DNA of 64,000 bases from Patescibacteria group bacterium (GCA_022703645.1 JAKLDG010000001.1:338814-402813), one strand, 5' to 3'; positions 7,146 to 59,179 are shown, numbered from the stretch's first letter. Program-made: numbers and translations. Notes: generated by a model not told the origin, from the sequence alone.

Positions 7146-7160
7146 TAGAACAATTGAGAA

Positions 7161-20610: not shown

Positions 20611-21183
20611 TATAAATTCATGGTATTTTTCCTTAAAATATTCTTAGGATTATTGCTGTCTCGTTCCCACATTTGCGGATTGGATTCTATGTAACTATAA
20701 ATTTCATCGTACGATTTTTCATTGCGAATGATGTGTTCGTAATAGCCGCGTTGAAAAATGGGGTTGCCTGTTTTGTCTAAGATAATATTTATCTTTTTCG
20801 TTGATTGATATTTAAAATACCCAATTATTTGTCCTAATGTTGGTTTTTTATCCCGTAGGGGCGGGGTCTCCCCGCCCTGAATTAAATTGTTTTTGTTACC
20901 TACAAATATCGTTTTTCTCTTCTAATATCCGCAATATAAAATGAATATGATTTGGCATTATCTGAAAAATATCTAATTTTGTATTTGGGAAATGATTCGG
21001 AATTTCGTACCAACATTTTTCTGCAACATTTCCAATCTTATTTAATTCCATTTTCCCATCCACAATTTCCCCAAACAAACATTCTCTGTCTTTTGTGCAG
21101 ATCGTAACAAAATAATCTCCAGGTTCGGAATAATCATATTCTTTAATCCGTATCGATTTTCTATTTCGTTCGATTTTTGACAT
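20611..21183 (-). pseudogene. RAYT / IS200-like Y1 transposase, copy 2, split by a 1-nt frameshift
   Basis: The N-terminal ORF (to MPNHIHFILRILEEKNDICR*) and the C-terminal part (…LGQIIGYFK…RGYYEHIIRNEKSYDEIYSYIESNP…) are in different frames. Removing one A from the GAGAAAAAC run joins them. Confidence 0.75.
20854..20876. repeat. GC-rich hairpin (GTAGGGGC family, single arm) inside RAYT copy 2
   Basis: GTAGGGGCGGGGTCTCCCCGCCC. Confidence 0.65.
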
Positions 21184-21218
21184 TTTTATTTTGATTATAG
21201 CATATTTTCATTTCCCTC

Positions 21219-31502: not shown

Positions 31503-31626
31503 AAAACCGTTCTTTCTTTGGCTTTTATAACGTAAAATTAACCATGCGCTTTATATTGGACTTTTTTTAAATTTAGCATAGAATAGGAGATAAGAAAACA
31601 AAAAAGCAATAAATCAATAAATCAAA

Positions 31627-42919: not shown

Positions 42920-45001
42920 ATGATAATAAAAAAGAAAGTAAAAAATGAATTTTTCTTCGGATTTATTTCTGTTGCTGTTCTTGTTCTTTTTTTGGGAATG
43001 CTTTCCATGTTTGCCGCCAGTAATGTCGATACCACGGTTAATATAATTTCAGCTGCTCCGGCAATTACTTTTTTTACTGCGACGCCAACATCTGTGAATT
43101 CGGGGGATTCATCGCTATTAACATGGAATTCTACTAATACAACATCTTGCAATAGTAGTGATTTTGCAACAGGCGGCGCGATTAGCAACTTGATCGGTGT
43201 TCCAACTGGCGCGTTAACCACTGCAACTACCTTTACTATTACTTGTTCTGGTCCTGGAGGTCCTGACGCAACTAGTAGCGTTACGGTAACAATCTCCGCG
43301 GGTGGCGGACCATCTTATACTTCTACCCCCCCAACTCCAACTGTTCCAAAAATTACTTCTTTTATTGCGACGCCAGCTCTAGTTGATTCTGGCGGATCAT
43401 CCGTGCTTTCGTGGACTTCGCAGGATGCCACTTCTTGTAGCAGTCCTGATTTTTCAGTTGGATCAAGCTCAAATACAAACGGTTCTATTACATTAAATAA
43501 TATTACTTCAAATAAAATATTTAATCTAATTTGCACTGACGGAATCAGCTCAGACATGGCTAGCGTGGAGGTAAAGATTAATGTGGTTCCAATATTAATC
43601 GCAAATAAGACTTTGGTTGCCCCAGGTGATAGCATTTCTTTGAGCTGGACTGCGGCCGGGGCTGCAGTATGTACCGCTTCGGGAGTTGCTGGTTGGTCCG
43701 GTAGCAAATTTGTTCCAAGCGGAGCGCAAGATGTGGTTTTACCAAGTTCCCCGGGTATTTATGTTTATACACTAACTTGCGATGAAAGTTCAACTTTTGT
43801 AACGATAAACGTTGGATTGCCGCCGGTTTTTATCAGTTTTAATTCAAATAAAACTACTACTGCTCCCAGTGATACCGCATCACTCGCTTGGGATGTAACC
43901 GGAGCTGACACCTGCGAGGCTTCCGGAGCATCTGATTGGAGCGGAAACAAATCTTTATCTGGTACAAGTAGTATAACTTTACCAGACACTATTGGGTTTT
44001 TCTCATATAAATTAAGCTGTTCAAATGTATTTGGCTCTATCAGCCGTACGATCAATATCAATGTTTCAACTGCTGAAAAACCTCCAATTGAAGAACAACC
44101 TCCAATGCCAATTACTAACCCAATAGAAGTTACTAAACCAACTGAAGAAACATTTGGCGGCGCAGGCGGCGGTATTGAAGTAACGATGACAACCGAAAAT
44201 CCTCAGATAGAAATTGGGGCATTGGGAACAACCAAAATATCCTGGACTTCCAAAGGAGCTGATAGCTGCAGCGCTTCGGGTGTTGACGGCTGGGCAGGAA
44301 ACAAGCCAGTTAATGGAAGTGAAACTGTTACAGTTCCGGCTGAAACCGGAATCTATACTTATGTATTGACTTGTGAAAATCAAAAAGGACAAAAAACAGT
44401 TGCTTATGCTAAGATTACCGTAACCGAACCAAATAAAATTGAGGGTTTTTTCAACATCATAGAATCAGAAATCATTCCGGAAGCAGCGGTAACGTCTGGT
44501 GAAGTTTTGCAATATGTTCCAACCCCATCTGAAATAATAGACAAGCTAGGCCTGACGGAAGCTTTTTTGATTTCTGGTCCGCCAAAAACATTTGCGCAGA
44601 ATGTTTTATCCACTATCATTGCCGCTTTGTTGTTGTTGATGGTCCTTTACTTATCGATTTTATACTATAAAAATTCCAAAAACTGGGGTTATATCTTTGA
44701 TGCAGATTCAGGTCGCGCCATATCGGACGCAAAAATTGAAATCCGCAAAGCGTCCAATGGCGAGATACTCCAAACGACTTTATCCGACCATAAAGGAAAG
44801 TTCAGATTTATTTTAAAGAATCTTAAAGATGGGGATTATATTGTTGCGGTTGAAAAAAGAGGGTATCTTTTTCCATCCAAAGTTTTTGGAAGAAAGACTA
44901 CAATACCAAAATTAGTCTATCTCGGAAGAAAAACTAAATTGATTATTAAAAAAGGATTTAAGATGAAAATTCCTATCGACCCAATATCAAAACAAATATG
45001 A
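42920..45001 (+). CDS. Surface protein: five Ig-like Cys-containing repeats, one TM, C-terminal carboxypeptidase-regulatory-like domain
   Basis: Five repeats of the pattern SLxW...C.ASG...GWSG.K...G...YxLxC. TM LSTIIAALLLLMVLYLSILYY, then GYIFDADSGRAISDAKIEIR...HKGKFRF. Confidence 0.7.
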   Translation: MIIKKKVKNEFFFGFISVAVLVLFLGMLSMFAASNVDTTVNIISAAPAITFFTATPTSVNSGDSSLLTWNSTNTTSCNSSDFATGGAISNLIGVPTGALTTATTFTITCSGPGGPDATSSVTVTISAGGGPSYTSTPPTPTVPKITSFIATPALVDSGGSSVLSWTSQDATSCSSPDFSVGSSSNTNGSITLNNITSNKIFNLICTDGISSDMASVEVKINVVPILIANKTLVAPGDSISLSWTAAGAAVCTASGVAGWSGSKFVPSGAQDVVLPSSPGIYVYTLTCDESSTFVTINVGLPPVFISFNSNKTTTAPSDTASLAWDVTGADTCEASGASDWSGNKSLSGTSSITLPDTIGFFSYKLSCSNVFGSISRTININVSTAEKPPIEEQPPMPITNPIEVTKPTEETFGGAGGGIEVTMTTENPQIEIGALGTTKISWTSKGADSCSASGVDGWAGNKPVNGSETVTVPAETGIYTYVLTCENQKGQKTVAYAKITVTEPNKIEGFFNIIESEIIPEAAVTSGEVLQYVPTPSEIIDKLGLTEAFLISGPPKTFAQNVLSTIIAALLLLMVLYLSILYYKNSKNWGYIFDADSGRAISDAKIEIRKASNGEILQTTLSDHKGKFRFILKNLKDGDYIVAVEKRGYLFPSKVFGRKTTIPKLVYLGRKTKLIIKKGFKMKIPIDPISKQI

Positions 45002-46476
45002 AAAAAACAACGTTTAAAAAAATAGCCTACTTATTTTTGTCCACATTGATTTTTTGCGCTCTGATGACGCCTTTTAGCAGCTATGCGGCTGATTTGGCCA
45101 AAAAAAGCGGCAACAATTTTGGTATTACAAGAATTTCTATCGCGGATACTGATTATCCTTTAACTATTTCTATTTCTTCGGATAAAAATATAGTATTTAA
45201 TAATGGTTTAGACATAGCAAATTTAAAAGTTAGAATCGCAAATAGTAAAAAACAAGGCATTTCTGGAATTAATATTAAATTCAGTTCAGGCGGTAGGGAT
45301 ATAATTAATCCACCGGAAAATACCACAGACAATAATGGCATTGCATATTTCAAAGTCAGTTCTACCCAAGAGCATATCTCCAATTTTCAATTTAGCCTTA
45401 GAGACCCTACCAGCGGTGAGATTTATTCAAGTAATGTGGTAGCAATAAAGTTTTTGAGCCAAAGCCGCTTTAGTATGACCGTTAACTCTATCGCGGATTT
45501 CAAAAATAATACCGCCACAAAAGAGGCTGCTGCTTATGTTGTCGCTCCTGCGGCTACAGCTGTAATCGCCGTAAGCGCCTTTTCTCCAATTATTAATTTA
45601 TTAAGTTCTATTTTCCCATATTTGAATTACCTATTTAACGTAATATTACAGTTTTTTGGTATCAGAAGAAAACAAAAACCTTGGGGAATACTTTATGACA
45701 GCATGACAAAAGAGCCGATTGATCTTGGCACTGTCAGATTATTTGACGCAAAAACAAAAAATATCGTTCAAACCGCAACAACCGATAAGTCCGGAAGGTT
45801 TGGTTTTCCACCTTTATCAGGCAAATACTATTTAACAGCTGCTAAATACCAGTTTGGGTTTCCTTCAAAATTACTAAAAGGAGCGGTAGTTGACGGTAAA
45901 TATCACGGTTTATATTTCGGAGATAAGTTTAATTTAAAAAAGAATCAAAAACTTACTATTTCTGTACCAATTGACTTAGCAACCGCGGTAACTGCTCGGT
46001 TAAGATTGATAGACAGACTAAAAGCATTTTCAGAAAAGATATCGCGTCCTTTTTTGGTGGTAAGTCTGATGGTCACGTTGGTTATGCTTTGGATAAATAC
46101 AACCCTATATAATGAAATATTGATCATACTATATATATTGATGATTCTTACTATGAGGCGCATTCGCACATCAGCCATTATTCCATGGGGTATTATTTAT
46201 GATTCAAAGACTAAAAAACCGCTCAAGAGTATGCCGATTAAAGTATTTGATAAAAAATACAATAAATTGTTGGAAACGCGCGTCAGCGATGAAGCTGGCA
46301 GATTTACTTTCATATTACCGAAAGGGGAGTATTATTTCAAAATTGCTGATTTTCATTATCAGATAGATTTAAAAGCAAAAGAGTTAGGCGGCAATAAAAA
46401 CTATCATGGCGAGATTTTCAAGGTAGAAGAGAATGAGGTTTTAAGGTTTAATATTCCATTAAAAAGTTTAAAATAG
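44998..46476 (+). CDS. Membrane protein: signal peptide, Ig-like domain, TM blocks alternating with two carboxypeptidase-regulatory-like domains
   Basis: ATGA start/stop overlap with the upstream gene. WGILYDSMTKEPIDLGTVRLFD...KSGRFGF and WGIIYDSKTKKPLKSMPIKVFD...EAGRFTF each follow a TM segment. Confidence 0.7.
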   Translation: MKKTTFKKIAYLFLSTLIFCALMTPFSSYAADLAKKSGNNFGITRISIADTDYPLTISISSDKNIVFNNGLDIANLKVRIANSKKQGISGINIKFSSGGRDIINPPENTTDNNGIAYFKVSSTQEHISNFQFSLRDPTSGEIYSSNVVAIKFLSQSRFSMTVNSIADFKNNTATKEAAAYVVAPAATAVIAVSAFSPIINLLSSIFPYLNYLFNVILQFFGIRRKQKPWGILYDSMTKEPIDLGTVRLFDAKTKNIVQTATTDKSGRFGFPPLSGKYYLTAAKYQFGFPSKLLKGAVVDGKYHGLYFGDKFNLKKNQKLTISVPIDLATAVTARLRLIDRLKAFSEKISRPFLVVSLMVTLVMLWINTTLYNEILIILYILMILTMRRIRTSAIIPWGIIYDSKTKKPLKSMPIKVFDKKYNKLLETRVSDEAGRFTFILPKGEYYFKIADFHYQIDLKAKELGGNKNYHGEIFKVEENEVLRFNIPLKSLK

Positions 46477-46500: not shown

Positions 46501-49500
46501 ATGATTGTGGTAAAGAAAAAGAAAATACCTTTAAGACCGTTTTTAATCCTCTTAGTGTTAATAGCTGGGTTTACTTTGAGTTTGGGTTTAAAACCAAATG
46601 AAAAAATAAAAGCGGCTTATTCTAATCCTTGCAAGACAGCTGGCACGTATGCTGGTTATGTAGTTGACGCGAATCTTAATGTTATTATTCCGGCTTACAA
46701 TAATGCTGTGTTTGGTGACACTTTCTATGATAGTACCAGCAAAGAAATTCATTGTAAAAGCATAACGATAGAAACGGGAGCGACTTTAGATATATCGCCA
46801 AAAACTACCGGTGCAAGTAAAACAGGCGGCACAAATTATAGAAGATTGGTTCTTGATGGTGATTTGAATATCGCAAGCGGTGGAACGCTAAATCTATATG
46901 GCGGCAATATATATAATACCGGCGGACTCAATGGCACTGGGATAACAAATGATGGAAAAGGATATGGTATGAATGTTATGGTTGGTGGAAATGTTTTGGT
47001 TGAATCCGGCGGATGGATATCAGCTGATGGCAAAGGGTATGAACATAGTAAGGGGCCGGGAGCAGGTGTGGCTGAACCCGGTTCACAAGGCGCTGCATAT
47101 GGTGGGGCTGGTCCGGATGGAACCAATTGTTATGGGAAATATTACGGTTCGGTTTCTGACCCGATAGAACTCGGCAGCGGCAGTAGTTTGGGAGTAGGAG
47201 GCGGAGTAGTTGATATAACTGCCGCGGGAACAATATTAATTCGCGGCGTAGGCAAAATTACGGCAAACAGCATTGGAGAGGGATCGGGCGGTTCAGTAAG
47301 ACTCAGCGCCAATACTATTAGTAGTACAATTGACGGCGTAAATATACCTTCTATTACAGCAAATGGCGGTAGTGGGTCTTATTACAGTGGCGGCGGCAGA
47401 ATCGCGCTTTTTTATAATTCATCAAATTTTGGCGGTGATATCAAAGCTATTGCTAACGCCTATGGAGGAGCTGGCACTGTATTCAAGAAAAAAAATATCG
47501 AGGCTTATGGTGATTTAATTATTACAAATAATTATCAGGATCATACCGATAACCCTCCGGACTATACTCCATATGCATATACAAAAATTGGCAAAACAAA
47601 AATCGATTCTGGCACATATAAGAATATCACAGTTAATAAAAGAGCAAACGCTATTATTGAATCTAGTAATATAGTAAACATCAATGGTGGTACTTTTGAA
47701 GTAAATAATTCCAAACTTGAAAATAAAGGCACTTTAGCTTCACAGACTTCCGCAGAAAAATTTCTGGCGAAAAATACCGCTCGGATACTTAATAGCGGTA
47801 CAGGGTTATTTAGCCTGTCCGCGAACTCAAACGCTATATTTGACGGCATAGACACTTATTTTGAGAACCAAAATAATATTATCCAAAATTTCGCCAATTT
47901 AACTATCTCTAACGGGGCTGTCATGAGCCATGCCGTCAATGATGCTACCGGTGTGACAAATTGTCTTAGGAATTCAATTGATAATCCAGTTGGCGGCGCG
48001 ATCCCTCCTTGCGAATATAAGGATTGGGGTGATGGCTATGGGAAACATTGGAATCAAAAATATACCTTAAGGATAAATGCCACAAGTGTTAATATTGATA
48101 ACAAAAGTTCGATAGATGTTTCACAAAAGGGATTTCAAACATTACCTGGAACATCAGGTTTTGGGCCGGGAGGGTCAAGTACGGCTTACTCAATCGGTGG
48201 TTACGCGGGAGGTTCTTATGGTGGCAGAGGTGGTAACGATAATACTGGGGGAGTAAGCGCAGATATTTATGGCGACTCGGATGGAGACCTGAATAATCCA
48301 AATGATCTGGGAAGCAGCGGTGATACCGGCTATACTGCCGGAGGATTAGTAAGAATAACAGTTTTGGGCGATATTGTTAATAATGGCTCTATATTATCAA
48401 ATTCAGGTACGGTTTCAAATGGTTTTGCCGGTGGGTCAGGAGGAGGCATAAGATTGGATGCAGACCGGATTCTCGGAGCTGGAAAAATTTCTGCCAACGG
48501 CATGCCCGGAACGATAGATCTTGCGAAAGGCGGCGGAGGAGGCGGAAGGATCGCGATCACATACAAAACCACAAAAGATTTTTATGGTCCAATTACCGCT
48601 TATGGAGGGTCTACTGATGGGGGACCCGGTACGATACTTTTTGCAAACAATAGCTCGGGAGCCTTAATTGATAAAGAACTTGTTATTTCTAATTCAGTTT
48701 TAAACGACAATCCAACCAAAATAGGAGGCGGTACGTATAAAAATATTACCGTAAAGAATACCTCGCCAACTCTTACTGACCTGACTTTAGCCGCAATCGT
48801 TTCTGGACAATCCGTTGTCATGCAAGATGGTGGGAATTTTGAAGTTAACCAAACTAATTTAACTAATAGCGGAACTATTTCTTTATTAGCCGGAACGTCA
48901 AATTTAGTTATAAAGGGAAAATCAAATTTTATTAATATCGGACCTACCGCCTCTCCTGGCATTAACGCGAATAGTACTTCTAAAGTTATTTTGGACAATG
49001 CCAATTTTGAAAATAAGAATAATATTGAACAGAATTTTGGCAATCTTTATATCCAGAATGGAGCAATATTAACGCATACTCAAAATGATTACTTAACGGT
49101 AAATTGCGTGAATACTTCCTGTACCAACCAAGACCTGGGTGATGGCAATGGAATGCATTACAATCAGGCTTATACATTAAGAATACATGCAAACAATGCT
49201 TTAATTGATAAATTTAGCGCTATTAATGTTGATGGCAAGGGCTATGACATGGGTAGAGGACCGGGTAATAATGGGTCTGCTAATTCTGCCGGAAGTTATG
49301 GCGGAGCTGCGTCAAGCGGCGACAGTACCTATGGTTTAGCGGATAACCCTAATGATTTGGGCAGTGGAGGTTATTCCGGTAGTTATGGTGATAATACCGG
49401 CGGCGGTTTAGTAAGAGTTAGGGCAGACGGTAATATAACAGTTGATGGCTTTATTTCTTCGGATACAACATCTGCCGGATCTTTTGACGGCGCTTCAGGA

Positions 49501-52500
49501 GGCGGTATAAAATTAATAGCAAATAGTATTCTTGGCTCCGGTTCTATTTCCGCTAGTTCTAATTTGACAAGCGGGAATATTGGCGGAGGTGGCAGAATAT
49601 CTCTCATAGCTACGCAAAAAAATTACAGCGGCACCGTCTCTGTGAATAGAGGTGGAACTGGAGCGAATTACGGTACTATTTATGATTCTCTGGCTATCCC
49701 TACGACTTATGGTCCGAGCGCAACACCATTAACTTATAATACAAAATTAAGTAATAATACTCCATATATAAAAGCCGATAGTTCAGCAACAACGATAGGT
49801 GTTGATGAAGGCAATGCAGTTAGCACTGGATATACTCCAGATTCTGATACCTCACTTCTTTTGAAAATGGATAACTGGGGAGATGGTCTTATTTATGATT
49901 CTTCCGCAAAATCAATACCTGTTATTAAATATGGCACAACTTCCTTCTCTGATACTGTTTTGAAAACTGGAACGCATTCACTATTATTTAATGGTTCCAC
50001 AGGTCGTTTAATACCTGATGGTACTTTTACATCAAATTTCCAGTATGGCACCGGAGCTTTTACTATTGATACTTGGATTTATCCAAAATCTGTTACGACA
50101 CTTCAAACAATTTATTCTCAAAAAAATAGCGCGACACCAACAACTAATGCATCATCATTACAAATTACTACTACCGGTCAGCTAAAATATACTGAAAATG
50201 GAGTTTCTATTATTTCTCCTGTCAGTACTATAAAACTAGGCAGTGATGTCGGATGGCAACATGTTGCTTTAGTTAGAGATAATTTAGGGGTTGAAAGATT
50301 ATTTTATAATGGTTCCGTAGTAGGAACACAGTCGTCTACATACTCCAAATTCAGCGATGTCGGTATCGGATGTTTATACCAGTCTACTAATACATTATTT
50401 TATAATGGCTATATGGATGAGTTCCGTATCAGTAAAGGAGTGGCGCGCTGGACCTCTGATTTTATTCCATTATCTGATGATGGCAACTGGGAAAAATTAA
50501 ATTTGAGAGCAACAAGGACTAACCCTAGCTCCGATACTAAGCTTTTGCTTCATCTCGATGGAACAAATGGATCAACTACCTATACTGACAGTTCTCCTTC
50601 AAACCATACAATATTGCGTTACAACACACCAACAATTTCCACTAACACTAGTAAATTTGGCGGCGCGTCAGGCGCTTTCCCGAGAGTAACCTCTCCATAC
50701 TTTGATTATATTTATGCTAATGATAATGTTAATGATTGGACTTTTGGCGCGGGTGATTTTACGATAGATTTTTGGGCTAACTTTTCAGATAATGTCAGGC
50801 AAGGTGTTCTTGCCATCGGCTCCGGCGCTTATGCTCCAATTGCTTTTGAAGTAGTAAGCAACAATCTTAACGTCTACATGACTAGTAATGGTAGCAGTTG
50901 GGATATCGCTAGCGGTCAACCAGTTGGCCAAACATTTGGTCCGGTAACACCAGGCGTTTGGGTACATTATGCGCTAACAAGGAATGGAAATACTTTTTAT
51001 CTTTTTGTTAATGGTACTACTGTAAACTCTTTTATGTCATCATTAAGTTTATGGAATAATAGCGGCGCTTTATATATAGGGCAATATTTTGGGTCTGTTA
51101 CAGCCTTTAAGGGCTATCTGGATGAATTTAGAATTATAAAGGGAAGAGCGGCTTGGAGTAATAATTTTACTCCTTCTACAACTCCCTATGAAATTTATGA
51201 TGACCCGTCTTTCAATGGAACGGTAGATATTGGCATAATAGATAATCTTGCAGGTGAATATGTTTTTTCCGGCTGCAACGGAGCGAACTGTACTTTTTCA
51301 GATTCAAAAGTTACAGCGAGATTCATAAATGGTATTGCTAATTTAGCAGTAAAAGTAAAAGACAAAAGAGATGGGCAGATAAAGCATCACGGTTTTTCAG
51401 GGCTAAAAATTAACTCCGTTTCAAATGTATCTTATATAAATAATAATCAAATAACCGGAGCTATCGAAATTCAAGATAGAACCCCAGAAAGATCAATACC
51501 ATCAGGTCCTGCCCCCGCAGGAAGTATTACTAAAGGAACTGCTGGCGCTACTATTTTTCCAATGGGAGCCGGTTTTAGTATTATAAATAATTCCAAAGGA
51601 ACCAGTCAGAGCCAACAAGATTTGGGTGGTAATTTAGTGGTTCGAGGTCCATTAGCATCCGCGCCATATCGTCTTTACCTTGATAAAAACATAATGTATA
51701 AAAGAGGTGATTATTTGAATAGCGACGGAACTATTAGCAGCGTGGCAACAGATTATCAAGTGGTTTGTGTTAATACAGCGGACTATACCCAAACAAAAAT
51801 AAGATGTAATGATGATCTGAGCACCAGCGCTATTCCATCAGGATTGCGAAATTATGGTATATATACATTTAATAAAACTTATAATTTCTATACCCAGAAC
51901 GAAACCTCTAATTATTCAGCGCCTTCAATATCTCAAGTTCTTATACCAGCTAGCAACCCAACTGTGCCTGTTATTTCTCCTTTAACAATAACTCCGACTA
52001 ACGGAAAATTAAATCTCAGCTGGAATAATCCAATTGATAATATCGGGCAAACAAAAACTTTGATCGTTAGAGGTATCGATAGTATTCCTACTTTCGTTCC
52101 AAGTGATGGGACGGATTATAATACCTGGTCAAATACTACTGTAACCGGAGAAGAGATGATCTATGACAGCACTAATGTCGGGGCGGGAAGTGAAGTAAAA
52201 AACTTTGACGATGCCAATGTATTTTTTGGAACCAGATACTGCTATACAATCTATGCTCAATATATTGGTTATATTTATTCGGTAGGGACTTCTGCTTGCA
52301 GCACTCTAACATCAATTATTGATCCGCCAGTCAACCCAACTATCACGATTCAAGGAATGATGATAAATATCGGATGGACAGCGCCACCTTCCGGCAATCC
52401 TGATAATTACCTGATTGTTAGAAAAAAAGGCACAACAGAACCAAACTGGAATCCAACCGGGGAAACTGCTGACTATAATATTGGTGATACGGTTGGCGAT

Positions 52501-55500
52501 GGTGTTGTTGTCTGTAAAGGATTTTCATGCACTGATCAAAATGTAAATGTAAATACTTTGCCAACCCAGTATTATTATAAAATTTATGCTCAGTATGGAA
52601 CCGCGGCTCCCTTCAGTTATTCTGTCGGTTCAACGGCAGTAAGCGGAAATCCTAACCCGGAAAACCCCCAAAAGTTTGATAATACCAATGAAGCAACACC
52701 AAGTGTAACACTGGACAATCTATCAGGACCTTACACGCCTCTTAATACATTTAAGATTGCAAATTATCTTGTCTGGAAAGCAACAACTCCGGCTGATTGC
52801 TCAGGGGCTTGGACGCCAACCAATGGAGCTGACTATTCAGGAGTGCAAGGAACTGGAAATATCATTTACAAAAACCCAGCAGCGCCAATATCATATATTG
52901 ATACTGCAGTTACAAATGGCGTTGGTTATTGTTACAAAATCTTTGTCCAATATAATGGTGAAACAATCAATACTACTGATCTAATGTATTCTTCTGGATT
53001 AAGTCTTTGGACTCAACCGCCAAATCATAATCCAACAATTAGCGTAAATAGCATCACCCAAACGATCGGCACGGATAATGTGGTAATTAACTTTAATGTA
53101 AATGATATTGATCCATCTGATAATGGCAAGCTTTCTGTTGGCTTTGCTGTTACAAATCCGGTTTCAGGATGCAGTATTAGCACTTTAACCGGACCAATAA
53201 CTAACCTCGGTGTCGGAGCTCATAGCGTTACTTGGACCGCCACTACCACTAATGGAACCGCGGGGGATTGTCCAGGCGTAGAAATGTTAGCCGGTTCTGC
53301 TCAACTGACAGCCACTGTTTCCGATTTTATCGGAGCCACCGGTACCGCTAGTCCAACTTTCTCTCTTGACACCAAAGCTCCCATTGCAAGTTCCAGCCTT
53401 ATTTTGTCCTCCAAAAACAGCAACTCCATTACTGTCGCTACCGGAGCTACCGGGGCTACTGATGGAAACATAAAAACTACCGCTGCCTATAAAGTCTATT
53501 ACAAGCAAGGATCAACGGTAGACGAAGTAAGCGGTACGCAAATACTACCAAATATTAATAGTTATGTTGCGGGACAGATATTTACTGCTTCCTCGCTAAT
53601 AACTAACCAGCAATATTCATTTAATATCTGGGCTTATGATAACTATGGACATAAAACTGCTGCTACGGTATTAAATGTCAGCACAAAAGGAAAATCTGTT
53701 ACAGGATTTACAGCTATAGTTCAAGGTATGAGAGTCCATCTGAGTTGGGACGCAATGCTGCCGGCGCCAGATAAGCATCTGGTTATTCGTAAGAAAGGAA
53801 CATCCGCGTCTACTTGGACGCCAACAGATGGTATTGGAATATATGCTGCTGGCAACACGGTAGATGCAGATACGATAGTAGTTTACCATGGCACAGGCGT
53901 CACTCTGGATGATGATGCAGTTGATGGAGCAGCCTATACCTATACTATCTTTGCCAACTATTCTGGAAATCTATATTCAGAGGGGGTTTCAGCTCCATCG
54001 ATAACACCGAATGCTCTGAACGCGTCGTTATCTGCTCCTGCCTATATACCAAATGGATCAAATTATGATATCGCACTCAACTGGGTAGCCCCCACACCAA
54101 GTTACAGTTTACAAAAATATGTAGTAGTTAGAGAAGTTGGGTCTCCTACTTGTTTAATCGAATGGACGCCAACCAAGGATAATAACTATAATGCATTAGA
54201 TCCAACCGGCTTTACTAATGAAGAAATTATCTATTCCGGAACCGGAACCACTACTACTGATAATATGGGAGGAACGGGAGTTTCTTCTGGTACAAATGTT
54301 TGCTATAAGATCTTTACTCAATATCTGGGAGATGATTTAGCGGTTCCAACAAACTTAGTTTATTCCGCTGGAATTGCCGCTACCTATGTACCGCCAAATC
54401 TGCCTCCAGAGATAGAGATTGGTTCAGTCACAGCGCTACAAACTACCGGAACTGAAAATATTGTTATAGCTTACCGTGTTAGAGATTCCGACTCAACCAA
54501 TTTGAATATTACATTTAGCATGATTGATCCGGGAGGCTCCACTTGCCAAATGAATTTAACTGATAATTTGGCGGGGATTGATGGCACTTACTATACTCAT
54601 ACCGCTACTTGGAATGCAGGGCTGGCAGGAGAGTGCCCGGGATTTGAAGTAACAAATGCTGTTATCCAAGTAACTGCCAGCGATAGTCTTAATTCTGTTT
54701 CGCAAAACTCCGCTCCATTTCTGCTTGATACTCTATCCCCAAGGCTTCCAACTCCAACTGTTTCTAACTTTAATTTAACTAATTTTTCATCAACAGGAGA
54801 TAAGATATTCTTCAATCTAGGATCTAATTCAACAACTGATACTAATGCGCTTAACTACAAGATATACTATGCTTCTGGGGGAAGTGTTGATGAAACAGGA
54901 ATACTCATAACAGGAGCTCCTATAGCATTTACTCCTGGAGCTGCATATTCGGTAACCGGATTAACACCGGGACAAAACTATACATTTAATATTTGGGCTT
55001 ATGATAAATATGGGCATAAAACTTCTGCGACTTCCGTAACATATTCAACTATTGTGCCTGCTCCGGCAAGCTTCTCTGTAACTCCGCATGGAATGAGATT
55101 ATCACTTACTTGGACGGCTCCTGTCGGTGGAACCCCAGACTATTATCTGATAGTTAGAAAAGCTAATTCAGATCCAATAATAGCTCCCGCTAATGGTTCT
55201 ACATACAACCTGGGGGATATTTTGAGCGGGGGAATGGTAGTCTACAATTCAACCGGGACAAGCCTTGACGATGATAATATTGATGACGGTCCTTACTATT
55301 ACCGAATTTATGCGCATTATTCAAATGGCAATTTCTCACCAGCCTTGGCTGGCAATGCGATTGCAGTGGCGGAAGGACCAAATACATTCAGCGCAACCTC
55401 AAGCCCAGCGCCAGTAGTCACATACATAGACACTCCACCAACAAATAATTTCAGTTTCGAGAACTATCTTATTTGGAAGAAAGAACAACCTAGCTGTACT

Positions 55501-57534
55501 ACTGATGGCAATCTGGTAGACGGTACGGTATATAATTATCTTGATTCAGTAGATGGGGGAACGATTATTTATAAATCAAACATTGATCCTAATGGTATGT
55601 CTGATATCTCAACTACAATAACTGGCCATACTTACTGCTACAAGATGTTCGTAGAGTATAATGGAGAAACTACTAATACTATCTATTCTAATGAAATGTA
55701 CTTTCAAATCACTCCTCCAAATAATCCTCCGACTCTTTCCGCTCTTTCTGTTGTTCAAACAATAGGTAGTGACGATGTTGTAATCGGATTTACTATTAAT
55801 GATCCGGATGGAATTGACGCTGGCAATCTCTCAGTCGCTTTATCAATTGTTAACCCTCCAGAAGGATGCAGTATCGGTACAATATCTGGTTCTTTGACTG
55901 GTTTATCAAATGGTAGTTATTCGGTTACTTGGACTGATGCCGATACTACTTGCCCTGGGCTTGAATTATCTAATGCTGGTTTAGAGTTTATTGCTCACGA
56001 CCTGATAGATTATTCATCTGCGCAGATAAGCAGTTTTTTACTCGACACTAAAGCGCCTACACTAATAGAGGGGCTAACATATGACCCACCAACCGCAGAT
56101 ACTATTGTAGTACGCCTAAGCACCAATACATTCTTCTTAAATCCTTTGAGTGTTGATCAAAATCTAAAAGGAGGAGGAAATAGCTTTAAGATTTACTACA
56201 AACAAGACAGTACCGTTTCAGAATCCGATACACAATTAGCTGCCTTTGATAATTATATCTTAGGGCAAGACTATACGGCCACACCATTAGGATCTAATTC
56301 ACAATATTCATTTAATATCTGGGCTTATGATAACTATGGACATAAGACAGCATATACTGATCCAGTCAAGCCAACTACCAGCGGTCTCAACGGACCACCA
56401 GTAGTACAATATGTTGCTCAACCAGTCCAAGCTGCTGGTACTGGTAATATCAATTTCAGTTTTGAAGTAAAAGATCCAGACTCGGATGGTTTAACTATCA
56501 CATTCTCACTAATTAATAATCCAGTCGGTTGCAGTATCTCTGGCGTTACTGGGTTTACCAATCCTGTATCCTCCACCAGTACTTTTGCAACAATTATCTC
56601 CAGCTGGAATGCGAAATTAACTTGTGATGGAGCGGATCAGTCTGACCTCAAGATCAGAATTAGCGCGGATGATGGAAACGGACATACAGCAACTATTGAT
56701 TCAGATCCATTTACTATCGATACGAAAAATCCTGTCTCTCCAGGAAACCTATCATTCCCAGCAGGAACTACTTTTGCGAATCAGGTTAGTGTAAAGACAA
56801 ATACTATTTCCGGTAGCGATACTAATGCCGATGATTGGCATGTATATAGGGTTGATGGAAATACTTTCCCAACGGATCCATTCTCTCCTGCTCTAACTCC
56901 AATTAAATTATATGATCCTTATATACCAGATGACGTATTTATTGATTCGGGGTTAACGCCAGATTCTGATTATACTTATAATATCTGCCTGCATGATACT
57001 TTTATGAACTTTACCTGCGCAACATCGCAAACTATTCATACACCAGCTTCAATATTAAGCTTTAATATTCTTGGTATTGCCAGTGGAATATCGGTTGGAG
57101 TTGAAACAACTAATATCACTACTACTTCTACAACAATTCCTTTTGGCAGTACTACAGTAGGGGATACAAAGGTTGGAGCGCTTGATCTACAAGGCACAAC
57201 AAATCTGGTTAATGGATATACTATTGATATCAGACAAGACCAAGATTTAACATCAGGAGGCAACACTATTCCTGCCCTTACCTCTACTAACGCTAGTCCG
57301 CAAGTATGGCCACCAACTCCAATTAGTTCTTTCTTTGGATATTCATCAATCAATCTTTCCAGATTTTCAAATGGCGTTAATTGGGCAGGATTAACTTTGT
57401 CTGACCTACCGATAGTAACACAGATAAACGGGACTCATGATGATGATGTTTTATTCAAATTATCCACCAAGAGTCCTCAACCAGCAGGAACTTATCAAAA
57501 CACCATTACTTTCTCAATAATGGCGAATCCGTAG
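46501..57534 (+). CDS. Giant (3677 aa) secreted/surface protein: three Gly-rich beta-helix-like blocks, two LamG-like domains, FN3-like repeats, four Cys-pair/Asp-rich modules, distinct C-terminal domain
   Basis: Single uninterrupted ORF with an N-terminal TM/signal. LamG-type motifs GTGAFTIDTWIYPKS...YMDEFRISKGVARW and GAGDFTIDFWANFSD...YLDEFRIIKGRAAW. The repeated motif FNIWAYD(N/K)YGHKT occurs three times. Confidence 0.85.
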   Translation: MIVVKKKKIPLRPFLILLVLIAGFTLSLGLKPNEKIKAAYSNPCKTAGTYAGYVVDANLNVIIPAYNNAVFGDTFYDSTSKEIHCKSITIETGATLDISPKTTGASKTGGTNYRRLVLDGDLNIASGGTLNLYGGNIYNTGGLNGTGITNDGKGYGMNVMVGGNVLVESGGWISADGKGYEHSKGPGAGVAEPGSQGAAYGGAGPDGTNCYGKYYGSVSDPIELGSGSSLGVGGGVVDITAAGTILIRGVGKITANSIGEGSGGSVRLSANTISSTIDGVNIPSITANGGSGSYYSGGGRIALFYNSSNFGGDIKAIANAYGGAGTVFKKKNIEAYGDLIITNNYQDHTDNPPDYTPYAYTKIGKTKIDSGTYKNITVNKRANAIIESSNIVNINGGTFEVNNSKLENKGTLASQTSAEKFLAKNTARILNSGTGLFSLSANSNAIFDGIDTYFENQNNIIQNFANLTISNGAVMSHAVNDATGVTNCLRNSIDNPVGGAIPPCEYKDWGDGYGKHWNQKYTLRINATSVNIDNKSSIDVSQKGFQTLPGTSGFGPGGSSTAYSIGGYAGGSYGGRGGNDNTGGVSADIYGDSDGDLNNPNDLGSSGDTGYTAGGLVRITVLGDIVNNGSILSNSGTVSNGFAGGSGGGIRLDADRILGAGKISANGMPGTIDLAKGGGGGGRIAITYKTTKDFYGPITAYGGSTDGGPGTILFANNSSGALIDKELVISNSVLNDNPTKIGGGTYKNITVKNTSPTLTDLTLAAIVSGQSVVMQDGGNFEVNQTNLTNSGTISLLAGTSNLVIKGKSNFINIGPTASPGINANSTSKVILDNANFENKNNIEQNFGNLYIQNGAILTHTQNDYLTVNCVNTSCTNQDLGDGNGMHYNQAYTLRIHANNALIDKFSAINVDGKGYDMGRGPGNNGSANSAGSYGGAASSGDSTYGLADNPNDLGSGGYSGSYGDNTGGGLVRVRADGNITVDGFISSDTTSAGSFDGASGGGIKLIANSILGSGSISASSNLTSGNIGGGGRISLIATQKNYSGTVSVNRGGTGANYGTIYDSLAIPTTYGPSATPLTYNTKLSNNTPYIKADSSATTIGVDEGNAVSTGYTPDSDTSLLLKMDNWGDGLIYDSSAKSIPVIKYGTTSFSDTVLKTGTHSLLFNGSTGRLIPDGTFTSNFQYGTGAFTIDTWIYPKSVTTLQTIYSQKNSATPTTNASSLQITTTGQLKYTENGVSIISPVSTIKLGSDVGWQHVALVRDNLGVERLFYNGSVVGTQSSTYSKFSDVGIGCLYQSTNTLFYNGYMDEFRISKGVARWTSDFIPLSDDGNWEKLNLRATRTNPSSDTKLLLHLDGTNGSTTYTDSSPSNHTILRYNTPTISTNTSKFGGASGAFPRVTSPYFDYIYANDNVNDWTFGAGDFTIDFWANFSDNVRQGVLAIGSGAYAPIAFEVVSNNLNVYMTSNGSSWDIASGQPVGQTFGPVTPGVWVHYALTRNGNTFYLFVNGTTVNSFMSSLSLWNNSGALYIGQYFGSVTAFKGYLDEFRIIKGRAAWSNNFTPSTTPYEIYDDPSFNGTVDIGIIDNLAGEYVFSGCNGANCTFSDSKVTARFINGIANLAVKVKDKRDGQIKHHGFSGLKINSVSNVSYINNNQITGAIEIQDRTPERSIPSGPAPAGSITKGTAGATIFPMGAGFSIINNSKGTSQSQQDLGGNLVVRGPLASAPYRLYLDKNIMYKRGDYLNSDGTISSVATDYQVVCVNTADYTQTKIRCNDDLSTSAIPSGLRNYGIYTFNKTYNFYTQNETSNYSAPSISQVLIPASNPTVPVISPLTITPTNGKLNLSWNNPIDNIGQTKTLIVRGIDSIPTFVPSDGTDYNTWSNTTVTGEEMIYDSTNVGAGSEVKNFDDANVFFGTRYCYTIYAQYIGYIYSVGTSACSTLTSIIDPPVNPTITIQGMMINIGWTAPPSGNPDNYLIVRKKGTTEPNWNPTGETADYNIGDTVGDGVVVCKGFSCTDQNVNVNTLPTQYYYKIYAQYGTAAPFSYSVGSTAVSGNPNPENPQKFDNTNEATPSVTLDNLSGPYTPLNTFKIANYLVWKATTPADCSGAWTPTNGADYSGVQGTGNIIYKNPAAPISYIDTAVTNGVGYCYKIFVQYNGETINTTDLMYSSGLSLWTQPPNHNPTISVNSITQTIGTDNVVINFNVNDIDPSDNGKLSVGFAVTNPVSGCSISTLTGPITNLGVGAHSVTWTATTTNGTAGDCPGVEMLAGSAQLTATVSDFIGATGTASPTFSLDTKAPIASSSLILSSKNSNSITVATGATGATDGNIKTTAAYKVYYKQGSTVDEVSGTQILPNINSYVAGQIFTASSLITNQQYSFNIWAYDNYGHKTAATVLNVSTKGKSVTGFTAIVQGMRVHLSWDAMLPAPDKHLVIRKKGTSASTWTPTDGIGIYAAGNTVDADTIVVYHGTGVTLDDDAVDGAAYTYTIFANYSGNLYSEGVSAPSITPNALNASLSAPAYIPNGSNYDIALNWVAPTPSYSLQKYVVVREVGSPTCLIEWTPTKDNNYNALDPTGFTNEEIIYSGTGTTTTDNMGGTGVSSGTNVCYKIFTQYLGDDLAVPTNLVYSAGIAATYVPPNLPPEIEIGSVTALQTTGTENIVIAYRVRDSDSTNLNITFSMIDPGGSTCQMNLTDNLAGIDGTYYTHTATWNAGLAGECPGFEVTNAVIQVTASDSLNSVSQNSAPFLLDTLSPRLPTPTVSNFNLTNFSSTGDKIFFNLGSNSTTDTNALNYKIYYASGGSVDETGILITGAPIAFTPGAAYSVTGLTPGQNYTFNIWAYDKYGHKTSATSVTYSTIVPAPASFSVTPHGMRLSLTWTAPVGGTPDYYLIVRKANSDPIIAPANGSTYNLGDILSGGMVVYNSTGTSLDDDNIDDGPYYYRIYAHYSNGNFSPALAGNAIAVAEGPNTFSATSSPAPVVTYIDTPPTNNFSFENYLIWKKEQPSCTTDGNLVDGTVYNYLDSVDGGTIIYKSNIDPNGMSDISTTITGHTYCYKMFVEYNGETTNTIYSNEMYFQITPPNNPPTLSALSVVQTIGSDDVVIGFTINDPDGIDAGNLSVALSIVNPPEGCSIGTISGSLTGLSNGSYSVTWTDADTTCPGLELSNAGLEFIAHDLIDYSSAQISSFLLDTKAPTLIEGLTYDPPTADTIVVRLSTNTFFLNPLSVDQNLKGGGNSFKIYYKQDSTVSESDTQLAAFDNYILGQDYTATPLGSNSQYSFNIWAYDNYGHKTAYTDPVKPTTSGLNGPPVVQYVAQPVQAAGTGNINFSFEVKDPDSDGLTITFSLINNPVGCSISGVTGFTNPVSSTSTFATIISSWNAKLTCDGADQSDLKIRISADDGNGHTATIDSDPFTIDTKNPVSPGNLSFPAGTTFANQVSVKTNTISGSDTNADDWHVYRVDGNTFPTDPFSPALTPIKLYDPYIPDDVFIDSGLTPDSDYTYNICLHDTFMNFTCATSQTIHTPASILSFNILGIASGISVGVETTNITTTSTTIPFGSTTVGDTKVGALDLQGTTNLVNGYTIDIRQDQDLTSGGNTIPALTSTNASPQVWPPTPISSFFGYSSINLSRFSNGVNWAGLTLSDLPIVTQINGTHDDDVLFKLSTKSPQPAGTYQNTITFSIMANP

Positions 57535-57575
57535 AAACAATTAATCAAGAAAACAAAAAAAACAACAAATCAAAT

Positions 57576-58289
57576 ATGCTAAAAAAAATATCTACAACCC
57601 TTCTCATTACTGCTTCCATATTAATATTCTCCAACCAAGCCTTGGCGCAAGAAACTACTAACACTATCAGCTCTTCTGTTTCTCCAGCGTTAATTAGTCT
57701 CAAATTAGATAAAGGAGAAACTAAAAGCTCTTCTTATGAGTATGTCAATGGTACTGATGATAATCTTATAATTACTATTAGCACTAGAGCCTTTGCTCCT
57801 AGTAATGGGGAACATGGAACCCCGCTATTTATAGACAAAGATGGAAAAAAGGTTACTTCACCCTTAACCAGTTGGATTAAATTAAATGAGAGTAGTATGA
57901 GTGTTAAGAAAGGGGAGAAAGCAACTGTAAACTTTCAGATTAATGTTCCTTCTGATGCAAAAGAAGGCAAATACTTTGCAGCTATATTTAATACAGAAAC
58001 TGATGGGGGGTCAGATAGCGGTTCATTAGTAAAGAAAGAGTTGGGAGTTACTCTGGTTGTTGAAGTTCTCGCCCCCAAACCAATACCAGGCACTACTACA
58101 ACCACATGGCAGAAAGACAATCTTCTTTCCTATATTATTTTTGGTGCTGCGTTATTGGCATTACTATTATTAATTGCTGCGATATTTAAGAGGAAAAAGA
58201 AAACTCCAAAATTCTTCCCGGAAGAGGAAAGGAAAGAGTTAGTAAAGAAAGTAAAACGAAAAGTAAAAATCACCAAAAATAAAAAATAG
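57576..58289 (+). CDS. Secreted beta-sandwich-like protein with C-terminal TM and Lys-rich tail (DUF916-like, inference)
   Basis: Signal peptide, LTSWIKLNESSMSVKKGEKATVNFQINVPSDAKEGKYFAAIF, TM LLSYIIFGAALLALLLLIAAIF, then KRKKK. Confidence 0.55.
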   Translation: MLKKISTTLLITASILIFSNQALAQETTNTISSSVSPALISLKLDKGETKSSSYEYVNGTDDNLIITISTRAFAPSNGEHGTPLFIDKDGKKVTSPLTSWIKLNESSMSVKKGEKATVNFQINVPSDAKEGKYFAAIFNTETDGGSDSGSLVKKELGVTLVVEVLAPKPIPGTTTTTWQKDNLLSYIIFGAALLALLLLIAAIFKRKKKTPKFFPEEERKELVKKVKRKVKITKNKK

Positions 58290-58321: not shown

Positions 58322-59179
58322 ATGAGCAATCAAGACGATGTCCGCATAAATATTTTAGGAATTCCTATCGATCGGGTAGGTTATATTGATGTTTTAGATA
58401 AGATTGAATACTATATAAAAAAAGGCGGGTATCACTATATCGCAACGGTTAATCCAGAGTTTATTATGCACGCGGCGCAAGATAGCGAGTTTAAAAAAGC
58501 ACTACAAAATTCGAACTTAAATACAGCTGATGGCGTCGGAATCGTATGGGCAAGTAAATATCTTGCGAAAACTCAAAAATCAAATCTCAAATCTCAAAAT
58601 TTAAGCATCACTTCGCGATTTATTTATAAAATCAAAAAGATATTCTGGTTGAAAATTTCTTTGTTCTCAATTTTATTTAACCGTCGTTGGCTCTATTCTG
58701 AAATTCCGGAGCGTGTTACCGGAGCAGACCTGATCTGGAAAATAGCAAAAAAAGCGCAAGATGAAGGCTGGAAAATTTTCCTACTTGGAGCAGGGGAGGG
58801 AGTCGCGGGAAACGTTGCGGGAAAATTGAAATCAAAATTCCCGAAAATTAATATTGTCGGTACTTATTCAGGCCGCCCGGAAGAAGAGGGGATTGCTGAT
58901 AGAGTTGCCGGATATGAACCGGATATTTTGTTTGTTGCTTTTGGCTCTCCTCGACAGGAAAAATTCATTTATAACAATTTGGATAAGCTCAATGCAAAAG
59001 TTGTTATTGGAGTCGGTGGAACATTTGATTTTATTGCTGGGCTAGCAAGAAGAGCGCCAAGATTTATGAGGAGATTCGGAATTGAATGGTTATGGAGACT
59101 TGTCTGCCAACCATTTCGAATCGGCAGAATTATCAACGCTTTTCCAAAATTTGTCTGGAAAGTTTGGAGGGGTAAATAA
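58322..59179 (+). CDS. WecB/TagA/CpsF-family glycosyltransferase with ~40-aa insert
   Basis: VNPEFIM, NTADGVGIVWA, ERVTGADL, FLLGAGEGVA, LFVAFGSPRQE, RAPRFMRRFGIEWLWRL. Confidence 0.8.
   Translation: MSNQDDVRINILGIPIDRVGYIDVLDKIEYYIKKGGYHYIATVNPEFIMHAAQDSEFKKALQNSNLNTADGVGIVWASKYLAKTQKSNLKSQNLSITSRFIYKIKKIFWLKISLFSILFNRRWLYSEIPERVTGADLIWKIAKKAQDEGWKIFLLGAGEGVAGNVAGKLKSKFPKINIVGTYSGRPEEEGIADRVAGYEPDILFVAFGSPRQEKFIYNNLDKLNAKVVIGVGGTFDFIAGLARRAPRFMRRFGIEWLWRLVCQPFRIGRIINAFPKFVWKVWRGK

What the first reader, a model, noticed from the sequence alone, without database searches (positions are those of the whole stretch)
46501..57534. Architecture of the 3677-aa protein: three Gly-rich beta-helix-like blocks, twin LamG domains, then four reiterated multi-domain modules
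There are three blocks (about 46740-47520, 47880-48660 and 49050-49690). Blocks two and three share the full layout ...YTLRI.A..V.ID..S.I.V..KGY..GPG...YGG.G...P.DLGS.G...GGLVR...G.I......GGSGGGI.L.A..I.G.G.ISA.G...GGGGRIA; block one matches only from the ADGKGY segment onward. They are followed by two LamG-like lectin domains (about 49850-50460 and 50530-51165). Four modules follow. Modules one to three each combine FN3-like units ending in Y.IFA.Y or FNIWAYD(N/K)YGHKT with a module of the form PPN..P.......Q.G.....I.F...D.D....L...F....P..C.I...G...........W.A....CPG.E.......A.D........S..F.LDT.(A/S)P (53015-53385, 54391-54745, 55715-56060); in module four (56385-56735) this pattern is degenerate, starting GPP, with C.G for CPG and ending IDTKNP. 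Lectin domains plus beta-helices in a CPR-style genome fit a glycan-binding adhesin. The Cys-pair/Asp-rich module is not a domain I can name.
Basis: partly seen in the sequence, partly recalled or inferred. Interest (0 to 1): 0.55.

Follow-up and report, generated by a model that had tools for sequence, protein, structure and literature searches.

The report
Giant surface fibre protein of Patescibacteria

Summary

The gene stays next to a small DUF916-like membrane protein in three genomes, even where the other neighbours differ.

Best reading: a secreted, disulfide-stabilised fibrillar adhesin-like protein. Adhesion itself is inferred. It is a new member of a known kind, of modest interest.

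The parts
46501..57534 (+). Whole gene, 3677 aa; NCBI HRY60379.1, hypothetical protein
46501..46599 (+). N-terminal basic stretch plus the only strongly hydrophobic segment (aa 8-33): a signal peptide or a signal anchor
   Evidence: hydropathy scan; sequence
46618..47535 (+). Beta-helix unit 1 (aa ~40-345), a degenerate copy; Gly-rich core aa ~140-345
47536..48675 (+). Beta-helix unit 2 (aa 346-725). Core aa 490-745 was modelled as a right-handed beta-helix
48676..49725 (+). Beta-helix unit 3 (aa 726-1075)
49849..50460 (+). LamG domain 1 (Laminin_G_3)
50530..51165 (+). LamG domain 2 (Laminin_G_3; best Pfam stretch aa 1403-1546)
51166..51915 (+). Unassigned region, aa 1556-1805. No family match. 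Conserved in the ortholog at 42% identity
51916..53001 (+). Module 1: three Y.I(F/Y)A.Y-type beta-rich units. FN3-like by pattern only
53002..53394 (+). Unnamed Ig-like module, copy 1 (aa 2168-2298); this copy was modelled
53395..53688 (+). FNIWAYD-type FN3 unit, copy 1
53689..54375 (+). Module 2: two Y.IFA.Y-type units
54376..54753 (+). Unnamed Ig-like module, copy 2
54754..55050 (+). FNIWAYD-type FN3 unit, copy 2 (Pfam fn3 24.0 bits, aa 2780-2841)
55051..55698 (+). Module 3: two Y.I(Y/F)A.Y-type units
55699..56070 (+). Unnamed Ig-like module, copy 3
56071..56367 (+). FNIWAYD-type FN3 unit, copy 3
56368..56745 (+). Unnamed Ig-like module, copy 4 (degenerate)
56746..57060 (+). FN3 unit, copy 4 (YNICLHD variant)
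57061..57531 (+). Distinct C-terminal domain (aa ~3521-3677) ending YQNTITFSIMANP. 47-53% identical in two orthologs. No family match
57576..58289 (+). Neighbour gene, 237 aa: signal peptide, one DUF916/WxLIP_PGBD-like Ig domain, a TM helix (aa 181-207) and a basic tail. It stays adjacent in all three orthologous loci
42920..46476 (+). Two upstream co-directional membrane proteins (693 and 492 aa) with Ig-like repeats/Big_1 and CarboxypepD_reg domains. There is a 24-nt gap to the giant gene. The 492-aa one also lies upstream of the ortholog in L002

Best explanation
The gene encodes a secreted, extracellular, disulfide-stabilised fibrous protein of a Patescibacteria cell. Its build matches a fibrillar adhesin.

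An N-terminal signal sequence exports it. Three right-handed beta-helix units and two LamG (concanavalin-A-like) domains form the likely ligand-contacting part. A stalk of about 2000 residues follows, made of four reiterated sets of small beta-sandwich domains (Y.IFA.Y-type units, the unnamed Ig-like module, and FN3) that give length. A separate C-terminal domain ends the chain. It probably works together with the conserved neighbouring DUF916-like membrane protein, possibly to hold the fibre at the envelope.

The unnamed module is a stalk or extender domain. It is a divergent member of an Ig-like repeat family found in giant proteins, several of which come from CPR bacteria. Here the usual Asp-box hairpin has been replaced by a segment that carries a probable disulfide.

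Shown: the gene, its repeats, the folds, the family sizes, the taxonomy and the synteny. Inferred: extracellular location, disulfides, adhesion, which end is anchored, and partnership with the neighbour.
For: - One intact 11-kb ORF in a genome of about 38% G+C, conserved colinearly at 40-55% identity in two other metagenomes.
- Patescibacteria origin.
- A single N-terminal hydrophobic segment and no other strong one.
- 32 Cys, all in 16 close pairs inside domains.
- In the 29-sequence alignment the invariant residues of that block are almost all Gly, plus Tyr, Ser, Pro and Arg. There is no invariant acidic pair, so an enzyme is unlikely.
- Laminin_G_3 twice, 91 bits.
- The module's relatives occur as arrays of up to 30 matched stretches in proteins of 1000-6500 aa.
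- The giant gene and the DUF916-like gene remain adjacent in L002 and L010. In L010 the downstream genes are completely different.
- Published work on a patescibacterial epibiont lists proteins over 1500 aa with FN3, concanavalin A and adhesin repeats as candidate host-recognition proteins (PMC13059738).
Against: - No binding, localisation or expression data exist.
- Laminin_G_3 and beta-helix folds also occur in enzymes and in purely structural proteins.
- No recognised anchor is present: no LPXTG, no C-terminal TM helix, no WxL or S-layer-homology match.
- The Y.IFA.Y units, the region aa 1556-1805 and the C-terminal domain have no fold assignment.
- The module model has low confidence exactly around the second Cys (residues 84-94, pLDDT below 50), so the disulfide is unconfirmed.
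- The three syntenic genomes are fairly close relatives, so part of the synteny could be inherited rather than selected.
Confidence: 0.6

Rival explanations
1. It is a structural envelope component, such as an S-layer-like or spacer fibre that shapes or protects the cell surface, with no specific ligand.
For: The sequence is mostly repeated beta-sandwich and beta-helix domains with few conserved polar residues. No known adhesive-domain family other than LamG was found. It sits in a co-directional cluster with other envelope proteins and a WecG/TagA glycosyltransferase.
Against: Its architecture differs from known S-layer proteins, and no SLH or S-layer family match was found. The orthologs are quite divergent (40-55% identity) and the family varies widely in repeat number, which fits interaction proteins better than a lattice.
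Confidence: 0.2
2. It is a surface-displayed depolymerase. The beta-helices would cleave a host or environmental polysaccharide, as phage tailspikes and pectate lyases do, and the LamG domains would act as carbohydrate-binding modules.
Against: The top structural matches are non-enzymatic adhesin helices. No invariant Asp, Glu or Lys typical of lyases or hydrolases appears in the 29-sequence alignment. No glycoside hydrolase or lyase family match was found.
Confidence: 0.07
3. It is a contact-dependent toxin-delivery protein of the CdiA, Rhs or WapA type, with the C-terminal domain as the payload.
For: Its beta-helix resembles TpsA exoproteins structurally. The same Gly-rich domain occurs in front of RHS repeats in other proteins (Pfam PF05593). 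It has a distinct C-terminal domain.
Against: There are no RHS, PT-VENN or toxin family matches. The C-terminal domain is conserved at 47-53% between orthologs rather than polymorphic. The downstream gene is a membrane-anchored Ig-domain protein with a signal peptide, not a small cytoplasmic immunity protein.
Confidence: 0.05

Closest known systems
Fibrillar adhesins of bacteria: a stalk of tandem Ig/FN3-like domains plus adhesive domains, as in the RTX adhesins LapA/MpIBP and SiiE (concept recalled from the literature, not tested here)
   Different: No RTX repeats and no type-1 secretion signal. No LPXTG or other known anchor. The stalk is a reiterated four-domain set rather than a single repeat type. 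None of the stalk domains reaches a Pfam cut-off.
TpsA-type beta-helical exoprotein adhesins (EtpA, HMW1, FHA, HxuA)
   Different: No TPS-domain or haemagglutinin-repeat sequence match. The Gly-rich unit has a long glycine-rich excursion (about 60 residues without regular strands in the model). I am not aware of an outer membrane in Patescibacteria that could hold a TpsB partner (own knowledge, not tested).
[quoted passage not shown]
   Same: A large surface protein with a distinct C-terminal domain is followed by a gene for a signal peptide, a DUF916-like Ig domain and a TM helix. WxLIP_PGBD scores 25.1 bits here and 27.2 bits in the L010 ortholog, against a cut-off of 27.3. The pair is conserved in three genomes.
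   Different: No WxL domain is detectable: Pfam finds none and hhalign gives probability 2%. There is no DUF3324 domain and no second WxL protein. By the published definition (one WxLIP plus two WxL proteins) this locus is not a WxL cluster.
Large surface proteins of Patescibacteria epibionts (PMC13059738)
   Same: Same phylum and same kind of protein: over 1500 aa, signal peptide or TM segment, FN3 and concanavalin-A-like domains, proposed host recognition.
   Different: That paper lists domain types only. The beta-helix unit, the Ig-like module family and the DUF916-like partner described here are not mentioned in the passages read.

Membership tests
Laminin_G_3 (PF13385, concanavalin A-like lectin/glucanase superfamily) | Profile score above the Pfam gathering cut-off (27.6 bits) | tested here: met
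   91.1 bits, E 9.9e-26, two stretches. The two copies also match each other, E 7e-9.
Fibronectin type III (PF00041) | Profile score above the cut-off (25 bits) | tested here: inconclusive
   24.0 bits for the FNIWAYD-type unit at aa 2780-2841. The ortholog fragment P0005 scores 39.9 bits. The Y.IFA.Y-type units give no hit even at E<=10 and are not related to the FNIWAYD type by hhalign.
Bacterial cadherin-like / Big families (Cadherin_4 PF17803, Cadherin_5 PF17892, Big_9 PF17963) for the unnamed module | Profile score above the gathering cut-off | tested here: not met
   Best scores are Cadherin_4 at 18.9 bits against 25.1 (one copy) and Big_9 at 13.6 against 23.6. Among 45 family members, at most 5 hit any one of these, all below threshold.
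Immunoglobulin-like beta-sandwich fold (for the unnamed module) | Two-sheet sandwich of 7-9 strands that superposes on known Ig/FN3/PKD domains | tested here: met
BNR/Asp-box | The S-x-D-x-G-x-T-W hairpin motif | tested here: not met
   Absent from all four copies here and from the closest relatives P0005, P0009 and P0011. Present in 122 of 275 copies in the wider family. Weak BNR and Reelin_subrepeat-B hits occur in six members each.
TpsA / filamentous-haemagglutinin exoproteins | Right-handed beta-helix fold | tested here: met
TpsA / filamentous-haemagglutinin exoproteins | TPS secretion domain or haemagglutinin repeats by sequence, and a TpsB transporter partner | tested here: not met
   No such Pfam or NCBIfam match in the protein. 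None appears among the flanking genes scanned.
WxL cluster (PMC10599100) | C-terminal WxL domain on the large protein | tested here: not met
   No Pfam WxL hit at E<=10 for this protein or for the L002 ortholog. hhalign against six actinobacterial WxL-like proteins gives probability 2%, covering only the last strand. The comparison set was small and itself only weakly WxL (19.7 bits).
WxL cluster (PMC10599100) | A WxLIP partner with DUF916 (PGBD), DUF3324 (HBD) and a TM helix, plus two WxL proteins nearby | tested here: not met
   DUF916-like domain at 25.1 and 27.2 bits against a cut-off of 27.3. tblastn also hits annotated DUF916 proteins (E 0.008-0.04). A TM helix is present. No DUF3324 domain and no WxL proteins were found.
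Diversity-generating retroelement target | A template/variable repeat pair near a reverse transcriptase | tested here: not met
   No such repeat pair in the 64-kb window. The one LamG-region repeat (43 nt, 72% identity) falls inside an unrelated small ORF.
Sortase-anchored or TM-anchored surface protein | LPXTG-type motif or a C-terminal TM helix | tested here: not met
   The protein ends ...YQNTITFSIMANP. No strong C-terminal hydrophobic segment.

The most novel reading that the evidence does not exclude
The giant protein and the downstream DUF916-like membrane protein form a conserved two-part surface system in Patescibacteria, working like the WxL/WxLIP clusters of Gram-positive bacteria. 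The membrane-anchored Ig domain would capture the new C-terminal domain (ending Y.NTITFS..ANP) and hold a fibre of 3677 residues at the envelope. That would define a previously unrecognised anchoring module in these bacteria. It would also define two new domain families: the Gly-rich beta-helix unit and the Asp-box Ig-like repeat.
Probability: 0.25. Interest if true: 0.5.

Novelty: new member of a known kind. Interest (0 to 1): 0.3.

Why it matters
Patescibacteria are thought to live attached to other cells, and how they attach is largely unknown. A domain map of one of their largest surface proteins gives concrete pieces to express and test. These include a beta-helix/LamG head, a defined stalk repeat family, a conserved C-terminal domain and a conserved membrane partner.

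The two unannotated domain families could be added to domain libraries. The Ig-like repeat has 375 cluster representatives at 50% identity. The Gly-rich beta-helix has at least 149 detected homologs; the named ones include Deltaproteobacteria, Verrucomicrobiota, Lentisphaerae and Patescibacteria. Adding them would also correct misnamings such as 'exo-alpha-sialidase' for an Uhrbacteria repeat protein.

None of this overturns current views. It fills in detail.

Tried and rejected
- The search for homologous proteins with the module alignment and with the C-terminal domain gave nothing. The tool appears to list only proteins up to about 1260 aa, so these negatives say little. The exhaustive HMM search replaced the first one.
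- PDB sequence searches found nothing meaningful for the module, the beta-helix (only spurious tau PGGG matches), the C-terminal domain and the neighbour gene.
- The WxL idea for the C-terminal domain was tested by Pfam, by tblastn against plasmids and by hhalign against actinobacterial WxL-like proteins fetched from plasmids. It was not supported.
With the whole protein it returned only one distant archaeal LamG match.
- DGR-type hypervariation was rejected: no template/variable repeat pair.
- The afdb50 fold library was not available.
- The promoter and terminator scan gave counts near the shuffle expectation. It showed no + strand terminator-like site in the intergenic gaps of the five-gene run, and a strong promoter-like site before nusA.
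- hhalign among the three stalk unit types found no relationship.

Full report
**1. The gene is real and comes from a Patescibacteria genome.**
Window 46501-57534 (+) is a single ATG-initiated ORF of 3677 codons. The exact protein is on record on contigs of 207 kb and up to 867 kb. NCBI holds it as HRY60379.1, 'MAG TPA: hypothetical protein P5096_03290 [Patescibacteria group bacterium]'. Its neighbours CysRS, ClpB, NusA and GspE carry the same organism name. The window has 33-44% G+C, and no tRNA or Rfam family was found in it.

**2. The repeat architecture is as described and far beyond chance.**
I ran BLAST of 120-aa chunks against the rest of the protein.
- aa 301-712 matches aa 684-1064 at 33-48% identity, E down to 7e-20.
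- Block one matches block three only at aa 153-212 vs 889-945 (E 3e-5).
- LamG1 matches LamG2 (E 7e-9).
- The C-terminal half repeats with a period of about 450 aa (for example aa 2119-2220 vs 3020-3119, 50% identity, E 4e-25).
- Module four matches modules two and three (E 5e-11, 1.5e-8).

A three-way alignment shows that the N-terminal 1075 residues are three homologous units. Each unit is a spacer (G.Y.NITV...GG.FEVN...) followed by the Gly-rich core. Unit one is the most degenerate.

At the DNA level the module copies are only 62-73% identical (family D2), so the duplications are old.

**3. The Gly-rich blocks are beta-helices of an unannotated, widespread family.**
- No Pfam, NCBIfam or PDB sequence match was found.
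- A search with aa 341-1064 found 149 homologs. All are unnamed over this region. The named sources include Deltaproteobacteria, Verrucomicrobiota, Lentisphaerae and Patescibacteria. Homologs often hold two or three tandem copies, and the domain co-occurs with RHS, G8, LamG and Ig-like domains.
- With a 29-sequence alignment, AlphaFold2 modelled aa 490-745 at pLDDT 78.9 and pTM 0.82.
- The invariant positions are almost all glycine, plus one Tyr, one Ser, one Pro and one Arg. This argues for a structural or binding role rather than catalysis.

**4. The LamG pair is solid.**
Pfam Laminin_G_3 scores 91.1 bits (E 1e-25) over two stretches.

**5. The unnamed module is an Ig-like domain of a real but unannotated family.**
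- The four copies (A1) share 27-45% identity.
- Pfam gives only sub-threshold hints: Cadherin_4 at 18.9 bits, GldM_3rd at 18.1 bits, CARDB at 14.8 bits and Big_9 at 13.6 bits. NCBIfam (whole protein) and PDB sequence searches find nothing.
- AlphaFold2 gives an eight-strand all-beta model, pLDDT 75.
- An exhaustive HMMER search of 1.84 billion cluster representatives found 375 proteins at E<=1e-3, 69 at E<=1e-10 and 16 at E<=1e-30. Nearly all are long, and one has up to 30 matched stretches.
- From 275 full-length copies the family consensus is N..P.V....Q..G...V.I.Y.L.D ... W.A..D ... vRirA.D ... S..F.lDT..P.
- 122 of the 275 copies carry a strict Asp-box (S.D.G.[TS][WF]). The copies here, and those in three close relatives, have lost it.
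- The two Cys occur together in only 8 of 275 copies: four here and four in P0005, P0009 and P0011.
- Scanning 45 members against Pfam produced no significant family. The commonest weak hits were Reelin_subrepeat-B and BNR (the Asp-box itself), then Big_9 and Cadherin_4/5.
It is a variant Ig-like extender, not a new fold.
- The conserved Asp residues and the ..D(T/N)..P junction resemble cadherin-type inter-domain calcium sites. That is my recollection of cadherin motifs, not a test. The tools give no coordinates, so the geometry could not be checked.

**6. The other stalk units.**
- The FNIWAYD-type unit is FN3: 24.0 bits here, and 39.9 bits in the ortholog fragment P0005.
- The Y.IFA.Y-type units match each other. 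They match no Pfam family and are unrelated to the other two unit types by hhalign. 'FN3-like' is unverified for them.
- Region aa 1556-1805 has no match.

**7. Ends of the protein and cysteines.**
- The only strongly hydrophobic segment is aa 8-33, after a KKKK stretch. It is a signal peptide or a signal anchor.
- There is no LPXTG motif and no C-terminal TM helix.
- The 32 cysteines form 16 close pairs inside domains, as expected for an exported, disulfide-bonded protein. This is an inference.
- The last ~155 residues are a separate domain ending YQNTITFSIMANP. It has no family or PDB match.

**8. Genomic context and orthologs.**
- The gene sits in a tight co-directional run: 693-aa protein, 492-aa protein (4-nt overlap with the previous gene), the giant gene (24-nt gap), the 237-aa protein (41-nt gap), and a WecG/TagA-family glycosyltransferase (32-nt gap). 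A 214-nt gap with a promoter-like site then precedes nusA.
- The two upstream proteins are membrane proteins with Ig-like repeats/Big_1 and CarboxypepD_reg domains.
- The 237-aa protein has a signal peptide, one Ig-like domain, a TM helix and a basic tail. It hits WxLIP_PGBD (DUF916) at 25.1 bits, and its L010 ortholog at 27.2 bits, against a cut-off of 27.3. By tblastn it also hits annotated DUF916 proteins of Arthrobacter plasmids.
- Two orthologous loci were found. L002 (ENA, broken by frameshifts) keeps the order 492-aa homolog, giant gene, 237-aa homolog. L010 (JGI, 430-kb contig) keeps the giant gene (42% identity to its end) followed by the 237-aa homolog (51% identity). Its next genes are NMD3-like, RluA-like and a D-Ala-D-Ala carboxypeptidase, not WecG or NusA.
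- The giant/DUF916-like pair therefore survives a rearrangement, which suggests a functional link.

**9. Comparison with the WxL system.**
[quoted passage not shown] Their partner is a DUF916-DUF3324-TM protein that is proposed to hold WxL on the wall (PMC10599100).
- The layout here is analogous, but membership fails. No WxL match was found. hhalign against actinobacterial WxL-like proteins gives probability 2%. There is no DUF3324 domain and no second WxL protein.
- I keep this as the most novel reading not excluded, not as the main claim.

**10. Verdict.**
- The interpretation 'surface adhesin' is reasonable and agrees with what is already proposed for large Patescibacteria surface proteins (PMC13059738), but it is untested.
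- The module is truly unnamed, yet structurally ordinary.
- This is a new member of a known kind, with modest added value: two domain families worth defining, and a conserved partner gene worth testing.

Noticed in passing
window 7161-10070 (-): The 969-aa leucyl-tRNA synthetase carries a NUDIX-domain hit (PF00293, aa 406-505, E 3.6e-12) between the editing domain and the rest of the catalytic core. This looks like an unusual insertion.
   Followed up: no
window 6594-7146 and 20637-21184: A segment of about 550 nt is duplicated 14,038 nt apart at 72-82% identity (families D3, D4, D8). The first copy overlaps a 153-aa ORF on the minus strand.
   Followed up: no
window 688-727, 57550-57589; also 2326-2378, 31573-31625: An A-rich leader motif (...AACAACAAATCAAAT) recurs directly in front of start codons, including that of the 237-aa gene (families D1, D7). 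It may be a shared translation or transcription signal.
   Followed up: no
window 42920-45001 and 44998-46476 (+): Two membrane proteins combine extracellular Ig-like repeats (a Cys-containing repeat unit of roughly 90 aa by eye; Big_1) with CarboxypepD_reg domains placed after TM segments. Their CarboxypepD_reg regions match each other (E 2e-5 to 2e-4). The 492-aa one is also upstream of the ortholog in L002.
   Followed up: partly
window 57576-58289 (+); L002 11488-11990; L010 5521-6186: A single-domain DUF916/WxLIP_PGBD-like membrane protein stays directly downstream of the giant gene in three genomes, although the genes beyond it differ.
   Followed up: partly
window 58322-59179 (+): A WecG/TagA/CpsF-family glycosyltransferase (186 bits) lies 32 nt after the 237-aa gene. 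It is not adjacent in L010.
   Followed up: partly
protein P0004 (NCBI MBI2475072.1, Candidatus Uhrbacteria): This 2595-aa protein with 13 copies of the Ig-like repeat is named 'exo-alpha-sialidase'. The likely reason is the Asp-box motif inside the repeats, so it is probably a misannotation.
   Followed up: partly
L004 5173-6825; also L005, L006 (Arthrobacter and Curtobacterium plasmids); L007, L008 (Streptomyces plasmids): In L004-L006 a small, weakly WxL-like secreted protein (19.7 bits in L004) sits directly upstream of a gene that is annotated DUF916 in L004 and L006 and 'hypothetical' in L005. L007 and L008 show the same layout with a ~340-aa hypothetical protein downstream. Most of the small proteins are annotated 'hypothetical'.
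   Followed up: partly
tool behaviour: the search for homologous proteins returned only proteins up to about 1260 aa and did not return the query's own 3677-aa protein. Its negative results for domains of giant proteins should not be trusted.
   Followed up: yes
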